A stretch of 64,000 bases of DNA from NCBI RefSeq assembly GCF_003704095.1, contig NW_020846227.1, positions 62,001 to 126,000 on the forward strand, in the 5' to 3' direction. The position numbers are program-made. This document shows positions 1 through 12,000 of this stretch, in pieces (positions within the stretch are counted from its first letter, which is position 1; each line of letters begins with the position of its first letter). Source of the DNA: Pocillopora damicornis. Its lineage: Eukaryota.

Positions 1-3000
1 TTTGTAAGCTTGAAAGCCATGACTCGAAGAATGTTTTGAATCAATGTTGTTTGTGATTGTGTGATTTTTTCATGCGCTCAAGACCTTCTATCTATCAAGT
101 TTTTTTAATTGTTACTTTAGAAACCCTCACTTCCGGCTACTGCAAAATTTACCATGAACAGATAAAATAATGTGCATGATAGGTGCCAGTACAGGCATAA
201 ATGGGGTGAGTTTGGCCTGTTATATCTCTTTCAAAACAGACATTGGATAGGAACACTTAAGGAAAGTTTAAAAAAAAAGGTTTGTTAGATAACTTTTTTC
301 CTGAGCAGTCACCTTGATTAATTGCTTATTGTTATATATTCTACTTTCTGCCAATTTGATCAATAACTTGTATGAGGTGAAATTGCCTTAACTTACATGA
401 CCCAGTCCCTTAACCCTATAACTTCCAGAAGTGATTAACATGTAACTTCTCCCTATAATATCCATACATTATCCAGCAAACAGGTAATGAGAATACCCAA
501 ATCATCAGGTAGAAGTTGTTACCTTGATCTAACACCAAATTCATGTAACCAATAAACAAGGATAAGTGTCGCATAGAGGGGAGAATTAACATTCAAATCT
601 TGGGAATTAAAGGGTTAACAATTACACGTCCACAAGTGACCAATATGCAATTTCCTTTTACAAAATCAATGCACCTTCAATCTTCAAGGTCATACACAGG
701 ACAAAATCACATGTTTCCGTATTTCTGAAACGTGGCGGAAACATGCAACTCCATGTTTCCGTTATGTTTAACATGCACAAAAAGTGGTCCGGTTCCGTTG
801 TATACACAGCAATGGAAACGCGAGAAAACGTCACGAAACCAGTAACGGAAACACAGGTTATCCATCGTGTTTCCAGAACAGTTTTAACATGTTTCTGCCA
901 CGTTTCCGTTAACAGATTCTTGCAATTTTGTCCTGTGATAACAAGAAAGCAATTTCAACTAAAGAAAAGTACTGTTTGATTTCACACGATACTCTGGGAG
1001 CCATAGCTCAAAAGCTTCTAAGAAATGTATGATATACAGCGCAGAAAATTGACATGAAGCACCTAGGAGTGAAATGTTAAATAAATCACACTTGCCAGGT
1101 CTGAAATTCAACTTTACTTGAATAGAAGCAACCAGAGCTAACACCATTTGCATGTCAGCCAAGGATTGACCATGACTCTGACCACTGCTCACCAGGATCT
1201 GATGCATAATACATGTCTTAAGACGCCTCACTTTGTCTTGGTATCCATTGACTTCTGTATCAGCTGTAAAAATATTTCATCTGTTCCCCCAAAACAGGAA
1301 AGTGTTAAATATACAATTCCAATAATTAAAACATACCATCTCACCATTGCAGACATGTACAGAAGAACTGACGAACAGATTGTGAACAGAAGCCAGAAGA
1401 TGAGCCCTTTTTTAAACAGATAACTCACAGCTAACTGGATCTCATTCTGTTGTTCACTTGCTATTTCAGAAGGAGGGCCAAAATGTTTCTCCTTGGTGTA
1501 AAATTTTCTCAGTCTATCCTCTTTCTGCATCCATTGCTTACAGCACCATTCTTCAAGACCTTGTGTATCTTGTGGAAGTGCATCATTGGAATATCGCTGA
1601 ATGTGAAAATGAATTTCACTTGGTACATTTCCTTTCAGTAGATCAACTTCTTCAAAACAGTAATTTTCAGAATAACCAACGGTGACATCAAGAATAGCAT
1701 CTACATTCCCCTGACGAAGTTTCTCAACACAGTACGTGAAGCCACGTACACGTGGATGTAGAACATAGTCATAAAAGGGAAGATTATTTTTTGTTGCAAA
1801 GGAATCACTTTTCTGTTTGCTAGCCTCCTCAAAGTTGGTACCCTCAGGAAACAAGAGTAGCTGAAGACTATCTGATGAATTGACAAAGTAACTGAGAACT
1901 GAATTAAGGTAGCTTTCATCTCTCTCCCAACGGCGGTGCAAGAAAATGTAAAGGGCATTCTGCATGGCCCAACCTGAAAATAAGCACAAAATTCTTTAAA
2001 ACAATACCTGGCAATTCTACTATACACCAGAATTTACTAATTTAGAAAAAAATGAAGTGTCTCCCCAGCTGTTTGTATAATCATCTTTCCTGAAATCAAT
2101 TTACTGAATATAACTCAGCAACTTAGCGATATAAGTAACATTAACATTGTCACTTAAAGAGTACTTTCTAAACCGAAGAAGAATTATAAAATGTCTGCTT
2201 GAAAACTCGTTTATACACTTTTTTGATAATGAACAGAAAATGTTGAGGACTGAATTTTTCTCAGACTTCTTTTTTCTTTTTCAATCTACACTTTCTCTCC
2301 CAAGATAATTTGCCCTACTGTCTGTAATAAAATTCTTATAATGCTAGTTTGGAGAATTTGGTATTGAATCAACTAATTATCTCCTAGTTGATATACATCT
2401 TTTATAATTCTCATGACCTTTCTGCTTGATATTATATTGATATTGTAAGGAGAAATTATGTCTTGGTCACCCATGGGAGCTTAAGGGTCAATAGCCCAAG
2501 TATAAAGCATAAGATGTTAACTGAACCTTAACCCTTCAACTCCCAAGATCTCATTAGTAAGTCTCCTTACTATCTACCATATAGATCTTCTGATGTTAGT
2601 TTGGAGAATTTGGTATTGGATCAACTAATAATCCCATAAATAAGATTTTTTGTTCTTCTCATGACTTGTCTGCTTGATATTGTATTGATATTGTATGGAG
2701 AAATTCTATCTTAGTCAATCATGGGAGTTGAAGGGTTAAAGAACAAATGCCAGCCATACTGCTCACAAGCAGAAATGTCAGCTATATGGTAAATCACATA
2801 ATAGTACATAAAGAGTCCTTTACTGACAGCCAAATTTCTATTCAATGCAACCATTTCATAATTTTAGGTCCCTAATGGCAACTTTGTTAAAAAAAAAAAT
2901 TTGATCTTGAAACCAAAATTTATAGCAAAATGATGAAAATACTTACCTGGACCAGGAATATGTTTGAGTTCACGTTTCATTATTATCTTCTCGTGCTTCA

Positions 3001-9000: not shown

Positions 9001-12000
9001 TAGTGATACTAATAACATTAAAACCCAAAAATTAGGGAAGTAAAATATTGTGAACGATATTACTGTGGTAAGTGCTTACCGGGGGAAGAACAAGCCACCA
9101 CACCGTGAGGTGGTCATTAACCCAGCGAAACCACCTCGGCCGTAAACACAGAAGAATTAAAGTCGGGCCCATGATAACGATGGTGCCGAATAAGCCAGTA
9201 TAGTAAAGAAAAGCAAGGAAAATGAATCCCTTCAAACGCTGAACTGTTGCCATGGTCCCAATCCTGCTGGCGCCCGTTGAGAAGTAAACCAATGCAGAGT
9301 TTCAATTCAATCGGCACCGGCAGCGTTACAAAAGCAACTGATTTCAATAACTTGATGCCTTTGGAGTTTTGATGAATAAAATTAAACGTGACATAATGCG
9401 CGATCTGCGTGCACGCAACTGCGCGGCGAATAAGCGTAATGCAACGGTTATGTTAGCGGCTTGATATCAACGAAACACGGTATCATTGCTAAAAATGACC
9501 TGCTGAAATTTCCATAACTTATGGAAAACCATCTAAGCTCTAAAAAGAAACATTTCTGATGATAACATAGTACTTTACCGGTCCAATGATTTTCTTTGAG
9601 GGCAAGCATTAAAAAAGACAATTAAGGAAAAAAGCACACAAAAAAAAAAGGCTAAAAGTCATTTTGACACTTTTGTGTACCTTACTTTTATGGTAATTCA
9701 TGAATAGTACGTTTCCATGTTGACATACGCAACCCAACCCAGGCCTCTCTCGTTTTTTGTGGCTACTGCCTCCTACTGGAGGCGGAACCACAAATGTCGT
9801 CGAGATGAGTGAGTAAATGAGTGTAACAATAGAATTCTGATTTTAACCCAATTTGACCCGATGTTTCCCGGTACCGGCTTATTGTTTTTTTTTTTTCGGA
9901 GTATCTTAGTATTTCGACATTCGCACTCGATACACAGTTGAGTTCTCTCCTTTTGTGATTTCTGGCTTAAAGCCACTAGTGCATTATGTTTTCAGTTCTT
10001 GCCGTGACACTGCGGAAGACAGAAGAGGACGACAACACCCCACAATCATTTCAGGATTGCACGCGACTAAAAAATAAACAAACGTTTTCCAAGCAGAAAT
10101 ATCTTAATAGGTGTGATCGGCACATCGTGAAACTTAGTGGAATTTTTTTTTTTTTTTTCTATAAAGAGAGTGCATTTTACCGTTTAAATCAGCGAGTTAT
10201 GTAGATCCGAAGATACAGTCTTTTCAGTTCTTACCGTGACACCACAAAAGACGGTAAACATCTCAAATGAAATTTCACAGTGGCATCCACCGACGCATAA
10301 CTTAAATCAAACCTTTTCCTCAATGGCAGAAATAGCTCAACAGATGTGATCTATAAATCATTGACGCTTTCTTTAAAAAGGAGGGCATTTTATCGTTTGA
10401 ATCACCGACTTATGCCGAAAAGAGCCGCCAATTAAGCTTCGAAATACGGTGTATCTTGAGATATCTGCAAGGAAACGAATGCCATGAGTAATTCAACAGA
10501 ATGATGGAACGGAGGAACGGTGGGACGGTAGAACGCTGGAACGGTGGATCAGCGGAATAGTGGAATATCTTATGACACGGAATGCCTTTTTGTAAGAAAC
10601 AAAAGTCTAAAATATTGATTTGCAATAAAATAAGAAATTATTTATAGTAAACAGGCGAAATTAAGAGAAGCATAGGTAATCATTGTTTGAACCTAAAGGA
10701 TAAGGGAACAATTAGGCTTAAGAGCTGGCCACTTAAAATTATTATTATATTACTATAGATGTGACGATATACATTGTTATTATGCGTGAAAGGATAAAAA
10801 AATATGATAGAGACATACAGTTTGCTCGTACCTCTGCGGTTTCGGAGCACGCTAACGAAACGGAGCATATTCCTATTTGGTGCAAGGTTAAGTTTATTGA
10901 TCGTGACCCTCACTGGTACACACGTAGGGGTTAAAGAGGCTATCCATATAAGACTTCACCCCAACAACATCAATAAGGATAGTGGACTCGAAATTCACGA
11001 AGCTTGGTTACCCACAATCAAATAACACAACAGCCGATCAATACGGAACTAGGAGGGAACACCATCTAACAACGGGAACAATAATGTGGATCGAAATGCA
11101 CCAATAGTAGCGAAACAACGTGCTGCAAATAGCGACGCGTAAACAATCGATCTCATCGCCTGATGAAGACTAGCAGTATTGCAGTCGAAACGTCGCGATC
11201 AACAAGTGACTCCATGGTGAGAAAAACAAATAAAGTTCATCTCCTATCTTACACTACGATGAACAATAACCACATTTTTTATTACATTATTGTTATTATT
11301 GTTACGTGAGACAAATATTCCGGAACAATACCTTCTAGCGTCATTATACAACCTTTAATTCTTTTCAATGCCATAATATTTTTCTATATCAGTAGGCACA
11401 TGCAGTATTCGACTCCCTATTTTTTCACTTCGCCACCATCGGGGTTCTCTCTCTTTGATTTTTTAACGCACCGAATATTCATTTAGTTTTGGTGCCAACT
11501 TTAGGCTGAGAATATACTTGTTGAAATGATTTCTTAAATTACAAAGAATTGCTTTTAAATTGTTACCCAACTAGCGAGGAAACACATTTAAAGCAGCTCT
11601 CAGGAGTGTTCATTGATACCATTTGTTCTCTCACAACACTCCCCTATATCGAAAAACGTAGAATGGTTAGCTTTCAGAAGCATCTAGAGGCGCCGTTTGC
11701 GCATTCAAAAATATTTCGTCTGTTCCACCACATAGAGTTAGAACAAAAAACACAATTCCGAAAAAAAGTAAGCACCATCTCAACACTGACGACGCGGCCA
11801 GAAGAAGACAAACGCAACTACTTGAAAGCACCCAAAAAACTAGCTCAAACTTGTAGAAAACTCTCACTGCTTCCTCCTCGTTGTTATCTACAATTACCGA
11901 CTCAACAACGGGAGTAAAATGTTTTTCATCTTGGCCGTAAAATTTTGATAGTCTTTCTTCTTTTTCACTCCATCGTTTGCTGCACCAATGGTCGAGACCT

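What the first reader, a model, noticed from the sequence alone, without database searches (positions are those of the whole stretch)
1228..9253. LCLAT1 copy A appears to have two interchangeable N-terminal cassettes (first exon + own microexon) feeding one set of catalytic exons
Seen: three homologous first exons (5116-4946, 9253-9080, 15341-15168), each followed by its own 10-nt microexon, but only two sets of catalytic exons. The 9253-8775 cassette has an intact ORF, a good start context (ACCATGG), canonical splice sites and the phase needed to join the acceptor at 3135. Its protein is well diverged from the 5116 cassette yet has no stops. Inference: a variable-first-cassette/constant-exon design (conceptually like UGT1A), giving enzymes with different N-terminal membrane segments from separate promoters. 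This could diversify lipid remodelling.
Basis: partly seen in the sequence, partly recalled or inferred. Interest (0 to 1): 0.72.

Follow-up and report, generated by a model that had tools for sequence, protein, structure and literature searches.

The report
Coral acyltransferase gene with two alternative starts
A stony-coral lipid-remodelling gene (LCLAT1-like) carries two related, intact first-exon units ahead of one set of catalytic exons, which most likely gives two enzyme forms with different membrane anchors; this is a familiar gene design and a sister coral's annotation already shows it.

Summary
On the minus strand there are three homologous first exons, each followed by its own 10-nt microexon. 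The 64 kb hold only two sets of catalytic exons. The contig is from a stony coral, not human; the closest named relative is Stylophora pistillata.

The extra unit (exon 1b, 9253-9080) is not a decayed relic. It is open, and its type is kept in 15 database rows. NCBI's Stylophora 'isoform X1' joins the orthologous exon to the orthologous catalytic exons.

Exon 1a is the ancestral type, shared with sea anemones. It borders the CpG-depleted body of gene A (o/e 0.30). Exon 1b lies in undepleted DNA (o/e 1.02). So 1a looks like the main start and 1b a restricted one.

Including both microexons breaks the frame. Which one 1b transcripts use is open.

I saw no transcript evidence for this species. 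This is a new member of a known kind (UGT1/protocadherin-style variable first exons) and of modest interest.

The parts
9080..9253 (-). Exon 1b: alternative first coding exon (58 aa, b/c type), start context gaccATGg, donor gtaagc
   Evidence: It is 76% identical to the N-terminus of Stylophora isoform X1 and sister to it in the exon-1 tree (96).
8775..8784 (-). Micro-b: 10-nt microexon of the b unit (ACGTTATTGG between AG and GTGAGT). It would encode T-L-L plus the first base of E.
   Evidence: Its use is inferred, not shown.
4946..5116 (-). Exon 1a: first coding exon of the ancestral type (57 aa, begins MLRN), donor gtgagg
   Evidence: It is 60% identical to Nematostella, and 75% to the coral rows P0023 and P0100.
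4747..4756 (-). Micro-a: 10-nt microexon (GCCCTTCTGG). It encodes A-L-L plus the first base of E, as in every coral full-length protein seen.
2947..3135 (-). Copy A exon 3 (189 nt), carrying NHRCRLD (the HX4D motif). Its acceptor needs phase 1.
   Evidence: Pfam PF01553 at E 5e-8.
1228..1973 (-). Copy A last coding exon, stop codon included. It holds FPEGT and the Acyltransf_C domain.
   Evidence: Pfam PF16076 at E 9e-15; 89% identical to Stylophora P0005.
1051..4400 (.). CpG-depleted block (the body of gene A), read as the trace of germline gene-body methylation. It ends just 3' of unit a.
   Evidence: CpG o/e is 0.30 in 1228-4746 and 1.02 in 5117-8774.
5117..8774 (-). Spacer between the two units, which would be intron in a 1b transcript. 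It holds no catalytic-exon remnant and no N. It does hold a tRNA-like element and the odd exon 5961-5875.
5875..5961 (-). Non-homologous exon joined to exon 1b in database protein P0101 (junction 9080 to 5961, GT-AG). It runs into a stop at 5877-5875.
   Evidence: This is either a spliced RNA or an ab initio model.
9254..9600 (-). Presumed promoter and 5'UTR region of unit b (CpG o/e 1.3-1.5)
   Evidence: Inferred only.
15168..15341 (-). Exon 1c: first coding exon of the upstream paralogue, copy B (b/c type)
14337..14346 (-). Micro-c: the only microexon of copy B (GTAATGCTGG)
11667..13270 (-). Copy B catalytic exons: exon 3 at 13270-13076 (with a GC donor) and exon 4 at 12415-11667

Best explanation
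The window comes from a stony coral and holds two tandem LCLAT1-like acyltransferase genes on the minus strand.

The downstream gene (A) has one set of catalytic exons and two tandem 5' units. Each unit is a first coding exon plus a 10-nt microexon. Each first exon encodes the two N-terminal membrane helices of the enzyme.

Exon 1a is the ancestral type and sits at the edge of the CpG-depleted gene body. I take it as the main, broadly used start. Exon 1b lies 4.1 kb upstream and has its own ATG and presumably its own promoter. I take it as a conserved alternative start used in restricted tissues or conditions.

The proposed 1b transcript runs 1b (donor 9080), then micro-b (8784-8775), then exon 3 (3135). 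It skips exon 1a, which is a first exon with no acceptor in use, and it skips micro-a, because including both microexons breaks the frame. The result is two enzymes, 371 and 372 aa long, that share the catalytic domain and differ in the membrane anchor.

Shown: the anatomy, the frames, the conservation, and the orthologous join in Stylophora's model. Inferred: the promoter, the use of micro-b, the restricted expression, and any functional difference.
For: - Anatomy and frames.
- Exon 1b stays open over 58 codons. The chance of that for neutral sequence of this composition is 0.019.
- Between 1a and 1b, synonymous sites are saturated (pS 0.69) while pN is 0.33, giving dN/dS 0.23. Only the exons and donors still align between units, not the flanks.
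- In the exon-1 tree of 34 rows, the b/c type forms a clade of 17 (97), of which 15 are database rows. Win_1b pairs with Stylophora X1 (96).
- Of 39 tabulated relatives, 29 continue with V directly after the same exon end, as a GT donor would read. 7 continue with A(L/I)LE, and 3 continue otherwise.
- Stylophora P0005 (372 aa, the length predicted here for the 1b form) reads b-type exon, then ALLE, then a catalytic part that is sister to copy A (99) and 89% identical to it. Oculina ACROYT_G039724 and the mRNA-like P0017 show the same join.
- Only the A and B catalytic clades appear among corals, with no third.
- For micro-b being used: its AG and TGG|GTGAGT survive although the intron around it is unalignable. 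Its sister unit in copy B depends on its own microexon as that gene's only one.
- In the model of P0005 (pLDDT 92), exon 1 forms helices 2-37 and 39-54. The microexon opens helix 56-65, just ahead of the first strand. The best solved match is PlsC, 5kym.
Against: - I saw no RNA evidence for this species.
- All 5 coral full-length proteins read ALL at the microexon position. This matches micro-a, not micro-b. T is absent at that position in all 24 aligned homologues.
- CpG o/e is 1.02 across unit b and the 3.7-kb spacer, against 0.30 in the body of gene A (Fisher p 3e-16 on CpG counts). Transcription from 1b through the spacer has therefore left no germline methylation trace.
- The only database protein that carries this exact exon 1b spliced to something (P0101) joins it to an unrelated exon at 5961 and stops after 28 codons.
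- The exon-1b search for longer proteins found no full-length protein. It also missed P0005, so it has little weight.
- Gene models, including Stylophora's, are predictions.
Confidence: 0.45

Rival explanations
1. Exon 1b is a working alternative first exon, but its productive transcripts splice from 9080 straight to the shared micro-a (4756) and on to exon 3. Micro-b is then unused, or it acts as a frame-breaking 'poison' exon when included together with micro-a.
For: All 5 coral full-length proteins read ALLE, which is what micro-a encodes. This includes the 3 with b-type first exons: P0005, P0015 and P0017. The route 1b+micro-a+ex3+ex4 is in frame (1119 nt), while 1b+micro-b+micro-a is not. 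Micro-a must be spliced efficiently anyway for 1a transcripts.
Against: Micro-b keeps AG, TGG and GTGAGT after a duplication old enough to saturate synonymous sites and erase its flanks. That is hard to explain without use. TLL differs from ALL by one first-position base. The sister unit in copy B uses its own microexon.
Confidence: 0.25
2. Unit b is a leftover of a third gene copy or a partial duplication. If it is transcribed at all, it yields only unproductive RNAs, and it adds no enzyme form in this species.
For: There are no catalytic exons of its own. CpG is undepleted through the unit and the spacer. P0101 joins 1b to an unrelated exon with an early stop. No full-length protein with this exact exon was found.
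Against: The ATG, the 58-codon frame, the donor and the microexon signals are all intact. dN/dS is 0.23. The b-type exon is kept in many corals and is joined to A-type catalytic exons in the Stylophora and Oculina models and in the mRNA-like P0017. P0101 may be an ab initio model: P0124, from what looks like the same kind of source, dodges a 10-nt exon and a GC donor the way gene predictors do.
Confidence: 0.2
3. Exon 1b heads a separate short transcript unit. This would be a small membrane protein of about 86 aa, as in P0101, or a non-coding RNA, and it would be unconnected to gene A's catalytic exons.
For: P0101 matches 9253-9080 and 5961-5878 at 100% across a GT-AG junction.
Against: The second exon has no relatives among the proteins I fetched, and no Pfam family was sought for it. 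The Stylophora and Oculina models contradict this as the main product. It may be an ab initio artefact.
Confidence: 0.07

Closest known systems
Multiple-variable-first-exon genes (UGT1, clustered protocadherins, GCNT2)
   Same: Tandem homologous first exons, each with its own start codon and donor, lie upstream of one set of constant exons. In those genes each variable exon has its own promoter (PMC3325998 and PMC1885805, of which I saw the search listing with the start of the abstract only).
   Different: There are only two variable units here. Each is small (57-58 aa, a membrane anchor rather than a substrate-binding or adhesion domain). Each carries a 10-nt microexon of its own, so a second splice choice must follow the first to hold the frame. 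Promoters are not shown here.
LCLAT1 (ALCAT1/AGPAT8/LYCAT) of animals, and NCBI's 'lysocardiolipin acyltransferase 1-like isoform X1' of Stylophora pistillata (P0005)
   Same: Same family: PF01553 plus PF16076, NHRxxxD and FPEGT. Identity is 89% over the last exon. P0005 begins with the orthologue of exon 1b and continues into the orthologue of copy A's catalytic exons.
   Different: The window's species also has the a-type exon next to the gene body. Whether Stylophora's other isoforms start with an a-type exon could not be looked up. That human LCLAT1 has N-terminally different isoforms is my recollection and was not checked.
Bacterial PlsC (T. maritima, PDB 5kym)
   Same: Best solved structural match of the P0005 model (E 2e-5, TM 0.66 on the target): an acyltransferase core preceded by N-terminal helices.
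   Different: Sequence identity is 12-16%. The idea that the N-terminal two-helix motif of PlsC sits in the membrane and helps select the acyl chain is recalled from the literature. It was not read or tested here.
Mutually exclusive exons kept apart by reading frame
   Same: Micro-a and micro-b are each 10 nt. One gives an open frame and both together give a frameshift.
   Different: Here the choice would be tied to promoter choice, the exons are microexons 4 kb apart, and no transcript data exist.

Membership tests
LCLAT1 / AGPAT-type lysophospholipid acyltransferases | Acyltransferase domain with the HX4D motif | tested here: met
   NHRCRLD is in exon 3 of both copies. PF01553 scores E 5e-8 and 7e-9, both above the cut-off.
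LCLAT1 / AGPAT-type lysophospholipid acyltransferases | FPEGT motif and the Acyltransf_C domain typical of LCLAT1/LPGAT1 | tested here: met
   FPEGTN is in exon 4 of both copies. PF16076 scores E 9e-15 and 1e-13.
LCLAT1 / AGPAT-type lysophospholipid acyltransferases | Closest named relatives are LCLAT1 | tested here: met
   The named hits are called lysocardiolipin acyltransferase 1(-like) from corals, anemones, a gecko and others.
LCLAT1 / AGPAT-type lysophospholipid acyltransferases | Acyltransferase activity on lysocardiolipin or lysophospholipids | not testable with these tools
   This needs an enzyme assay.
Variable-first-exon / constant-exon gene (UGT1 or protocadherin design) | Two or more tandem homologous first exons upstream of one set of constant exons | tested here: met
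   Exons 1b and 1a lie upstream of one exon 3 and one exon 4. No catalytic remnant lies between them.
Variable-first-exon / constant-exon gene (UGT1 or protocadherin design) | Each variable exon has an ATG, an open frame, a donor, and a phase that fits the constant acceptor | tested here: met
   The fit holds only with exactly one 10-nt microexon in between.
Variable-first-exon / constant-exon gene (UGT1 or protocadherin design) | Each variable exon has its own promoter | not testable with these tools
   The only indirect record is the CpG profile. It fits a start at 1a and leaves 1b untested.
Variable-first-exon / constant-exon gene (UGT1 or protocadherin design) | Transcripts join each variable exon to the constant exons | tested here: inconclusive
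   b type joined to A-type catalytic exons: Stylophora P0005, Oculina P0015 and the mRNA-like P0017. a type joined to catalytic exons: P0023. These come from different species, none of them this one. P0101 joins 1b elsewhere.
Pseudo-exon or relic of a lost gene copy | Disabling changes: lost ATG, stops, frameshifts or lost splice sites | tested here: not met
   None are present in exon 1b or micro-b.
Pseudo-exon or relic of a lost gene copy | Relaxed constraint (dN/dS near 1) | tested here: not met
   For 1a against 1b, pN is 0.33, pS 0.69 and dN/dS 0.23. Synonymous sites are saturated, so this is rough.

The most novel reading that the evidence does not exclude
Promoter choice dictates microexon choice. 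Transcripts from the 1b promoter would include micro-b and skip micro-a, and transcripts from the 1a promoter would use micro-a. The two 10-nt microexons would then be mutually exclusive, policed by reading frame, and inherited together with their first exon as one unit since before the A/B gene duplication. That would be a rare, cleanly testable case of promoter-coupled microexon selection. It would produce enzymes with different membrane anchors for different tissues or states, such as symbiosis or heat.
Probability: 0.2. Interest if true: 0.5.

Novelty: new member of a known kind. Interest (0 to 1): 0.3.

Why it matters
If both starts are used, corals make two forms of a lipid-remodelling enzyme. 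The forms would share the catalytic domain and differ in the two N-terminal membrane helices. In this enzyme class those helices place the active site at the membrane, so location or acyl-chain preference could differ between tissues or conditions.

The practical lesson is for annotation. The gene needs a 10-nt microexon that ab initio predictors miss. P0124 and probably P0101 look like such mis-models.

The design itself, variable first exons feeding constant exons, is well known. The Stylophora annotation already contains the b-type isoform. The gain is therefore incremental.

Tried and rejected
- **Hidden third catalytic set.** tblastn at E<=50 found none in 5117-8774 or anywhere else. That stretch holds no N.
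- **Weak exon-1c hit at 24968-24894 (E 0.003).** Its translation LLMASCYSSPAYVATWMSPRWLRLL has no ATG or exon context and no support from the other exons. I dropped it as chance.
- **Exon against intron change between the window and P0001.** The Fisher p printed is invalid, because an indel shifts the intron frame. Realigned, the exon has 0 of 58 aa differences. The intron read-through has an indel plus 4 differences in 45 aa, and 3 in the first 75. The direction is as expected, but this is too weak to use.
- **Finding full-length proteins through exon 1 alone.** I got only 3 and 4 hits, all genomic read-throughs. One search missed P0005, so these blanks mean little.
- **The listing of cluster members.** Stylophora's other isoforms and the 193 members behind P0004 therefore stayed unseen.
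- **Genomic context in other corals.** Synteny, the exon map of Stylophora X1 and nucleotide dN/dS across species stayed unchecked.
- **Remnant of an a-type unit inside copy B.** None was found. The best exon-1a hit there is E 0.48, and there is no fourth AG-N10-GTRAGT site.
- **Literature.** Searches for 'LCLAT1' + 'alternative first exon', 'lysocardiolipin acyltransferase' + 'Stylophora' and 'LCLAT1' + 'isoform' + 'alternative promoter' each returned 0 papers. Searches with 'coral' (8 papers) and 'splice variant'/'N-terminal' gave nothing on this topic, judging by titles and abstract starts.
- **Rfam on 1-16900.** It found only a tRNA.
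Full report
**What the window is.** The contig is not human. The best named relative of the gene is 'lysocardiolipin acyltransferase 1-like isoform X1' of the stony coral Stylophora pistillata, at 89% identity over the last exon. Other corals and sea anemones follow. GC content is about 38%. The five N runs (16910-16935 and four further on) lie outside the locus and were left alone.

Every search used one exon at a time. Frame compatibility was checked by adding exon lengths. 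The fold was made on a database protein, not on a joined model.

**Checking the observation.** All the features are on the minus strand.
- Copy A: exon 1a at 5116-4946, micro-a at 4756-4747, exon 3 at 3135-2947, last exon at 1973-1228.
- Unit b: exon 1b at 9253-9080, micro-b at 8784-8775.
- Copy B: exon 1c at 15341-15168, micro-c at 14346-14337, exon 3 at 13270-13076, last exon at 12415-11667.

The three first exons begin with ATG, are open, and end before GT. Their pairwise identity is 43-52%.

A permissive tblastn of the whole window (E<=50) finds exon 1 three times and exons 3 and 4 twice each. Nothing better than E=1.9 lies in the 3.7 kb between the two units, and that stretch holds no N.

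The string AG-N7-TGG-GTRAGT occurs three times in 128 kb of both strands, exactly at the three microexons. The chance expectation is 0.04. The flanks of the microexons and first exons no longer align.

Exon lengths give open frames for 1a or 1b plus one microexon plus exons 3 and 4. Two microexons, or none, shift the frame.

**Family.** Exon 3 carries NHRCRLD and matches PF01553. The last exon carries FPEGT and matches PF16076. The first exons match no Pfam family. Each has a hydrophobic stretch at about residues 9-28.

An AlphaFold model of Stylophora P0005, built with 24 aligned database proteins, reaches pLDDT 92. It places the exon-1 part in helices 2-37 and 39-54. The microexon residues open helix 56-65, just before the first strand. 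The best solved match is PlsC of Thermotoga maritima (5kym, E 2e-5).

**Is unit b alive?** Five lines of evidence say it is under selection.
1. A 58-codon frame stays open by chance with probability 0.019 at this composition.
2. Between 1a and 1b, synonymous sites are saturated (pS 0.69) but pN is 0.33. For comparison, dN/dS between the A and B catalytic exons is 0.13-0.18.
3. A HMMER scan of 1.84 billion representatives with exon 1b gave 63 hits at E<=1e-3. I fetched 30 of them. Together with earlier proteins I tabulated 39 rows. Of these, 29 continue with V directly after the same exon end, which is how a GT donor reads when an ORF caller runs into the intron. 7 of 39 continue with A(L/I)LE, meaning they are spliced. 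3 of 39 continue otherwise.
4. I built a tree of 34 exon-1 rows: 31 database rows and 3 from the window. Eight tabulated rows were left out as duplicates, variants or more distant sequences: P0017, P0111, P0124, P0125, P0127, P0129, P0131 and P0132. P0101 and P0102, identical to win_1b over the exon, and P0117 were fetched or listed but not tabulated. The tree has few columns and used the quick method. It separates an a-type clade (9 rows, support 88) that holds win_1a from a b/c-type clade (17 rows, 97). The b/c clade holds win_1b with Stylophora X1 (96) and win_1c with P0123 (100). Anemone proteins start with MLRNP, as exon 1a does, so the a type is ancestral.
5. Three proteins join a b-type exon, through ALLE, to catalytic exons. 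They are Stylophora P0005, Oculina patagonica ACROYT_G039724 (P0015), and P0017, a 355-aa ORF on a 2-kb contig that is therefore probably from mRNA.

In the exon-4 tree (32 rows, quick method), copy A pairs with Stylophora (99) inside an A clade of 10 rows. Copy B sits in a B clade of 6 rows (100). The two clades join with support 87. There is no third clade.

Stylophora's model therefore joins the orthologue of exon 1b to the orthologue of copy A's catalytic exons. Its length of 372 aa equals the length predicted here for the 1b form.

**What speaks for caution.**
- No transcript of this species was available.
- CpG observed/expected is 0.30 from the stop codon of gene A up to micro-a (30 CpG in 3519 nt). 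It is 1.10 across unit a, 1.02 in the spacer (133 CpG in 3658 nt), 1.02 in unit b and 1.01 in all of copy B.
- The paired coding exons show the same contrast. The last exon of A has 9 CpG in 746 nt. The last exon of B has 34 in 749 nt.
- In invertebrates, CpG loss is used as a proxy for germline gene-body methylation. Steadily expressed genes tend to be methylated and inducible genes less so (PMC4378018, PMC8857923 and PMC10883760; I saw the search listing with abstract starts only).
- Read this way, gene A has long been transcribed in the germline from a start near exon 1a. Transcription from 1b across the spacer has left no trace. Copy B behaves like an inducible or tissue-restricted gene. 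This fits a restricted alternative promoter, but it fits a silent relic equally well.

**The microexon question.** All 5 coral full-length proteins read ALL at this position, whichever first exon they carry. Micro-a encodes ALL. Micro-b would give TLL and micro-c gives VML. In 24 aligned homologues the position is mostly A and is never T.

A 1b transcript could therefore use micro-a and skip micro-b, which is equally in frame. Against that, micro-b has kept its acceptor AG and a perfect TGG|GTGAGT through a divergence that erased everything around it. Its sister unit in copy B relies on its own microexon. I lean towards micro-b being used, but only weakly.

**Two odd database proteins.** P0101 (86 aa) matches 9253-9080 and then 5961-5878, both at 100%, across a GT-AG junction. 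It ends at a stop. If it comes from RNA, it shows that the 1b promoter and donor are active, but in an unproductive splice.

P0124 (121 aa) joins exon 1c, from a donor 11 nt upstream of the normal one, straight to exon 3 of copy B. It then reads through that exon's GC donor to a stop. Avoiding a 10-nt exon and ignoring a GC donor is what ab initio predictors do. I therefore suspect both proteins are gene models rather than transcripts.

**History (inferred).** The b/c type is one clade. P0017 joins a b/c-type exon to catalytic exons that fall outside the A+B clade (support 87 only). The simplest story is an ancestral gene with two 5' units [b/c][a][catalytic]. The locus then duplicated, and the upstream copy (B) lost the a unit. 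No remnant of an a unit is left in B. A later copy of B's 5' unit inserted in front of A is not excluded.

**Verdict.** The anatomy is real. The most likely reading is a gene with two alternative first exons feeding one set of catalytic exons. I put about 0.7 on that in total: 0.45 for the version in which 1b uses its own microexon, and 0.25 for the version with a shared microexon. A relic or unproductive unit gets about 0.2.

The design belongs to a known kind, variable first exons as in UGT1 and the protocadherins (PMC3325998 and PMC1885805, listing only). The b-type isoform is already in NCBI's Stylophora annotation. My literature searches found no paper on it. Interest is modest. The frame-enforced choice between two microexons is the one unusual point.

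Noticed in passing
window 13070-13091 (donor of copy B exon 3, at 13075-13074), minus strand: Copy B's exon 3 ends CAG|GCGAGT, a GC donor rather than GT. Copy A has CAG|GTAAGT at the same place. Database protein P0124 reads straight through it to a stop. This is either a rare GC-AG intron or a weakened gene.
   Followed up: partly
window 15179/15178 (inside exon 1c) and 13270: P0124 joins an alternative GT donor 11 nt upstream of the normal exon-1c donor directly to exon 3 of copy B. This keeps the frame without the microexon and gives a protein 7 aa shorter. It is probably an ab initio model, possibly a real minor isoform.
   Followed up: partly
window 6876-6948 (+): A tRNA-like element (ARAGORN: Thr, anticodon GGT; Rfam tRNA at 59.7 bits) lies in the spacer between the two units. 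Reading, similar strings of about 27 nt flank it near 7020-6990 and 6770-6745. It may be a tRNA-derived repeat.
   Followed up: no
window 4904-5278 (-) and about 5134: The frame of exon 1a stays open for 54 codons upstream of its ATG. A TACTAACAG string ends 17 nt before the ATG. By my own arithmetic, 1b + micro-b + 17 nt + 1a would stay in frame (174+10+17+171 = 372). None of the proteins I fetched has such a doubled N-terminus.
   Followed up: no
window 410-618, 13918-14129, 2300-2740: A short interspersed repeat family of about 220 nt (79-91% identical direct copies, plus inverted copies) sits in the 3' flank and an intron of copy A and in an intron of copy B. A (GAGAGAGATC)n microsatellite lies at about 6340-6410.
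   Followed up: no
window 39609-40577 (+), 42531-43574 (+): Two intron-less rhodopsin-type GPCR ORFs (PF00001, E 1e-27 and 2e-13).
   Followed up: partly
window 46510-47652 (-): A 381-aa ORF with a Mutator-like transposase domain (PF20700, E 7e-8).
   Followed up: partly
window 51278-52900 (+), 54893-55168 (-), 44695-45018 (-), 63609-63965 (+): Exons of a short-chain dehydrogenase (PF00106), a fragment that weakly matches the W2 domain of eIF5/eIF4-gamma-type proteins (29.9 bits, just under the cut-off of 30), a Bles03-family fragment, and menin (PF05053, E 5e-54). The 52-60 kb block is strongly CpG-depleted (o/e 0.15-0.35), like the body of gene A.
   Followed up: partly
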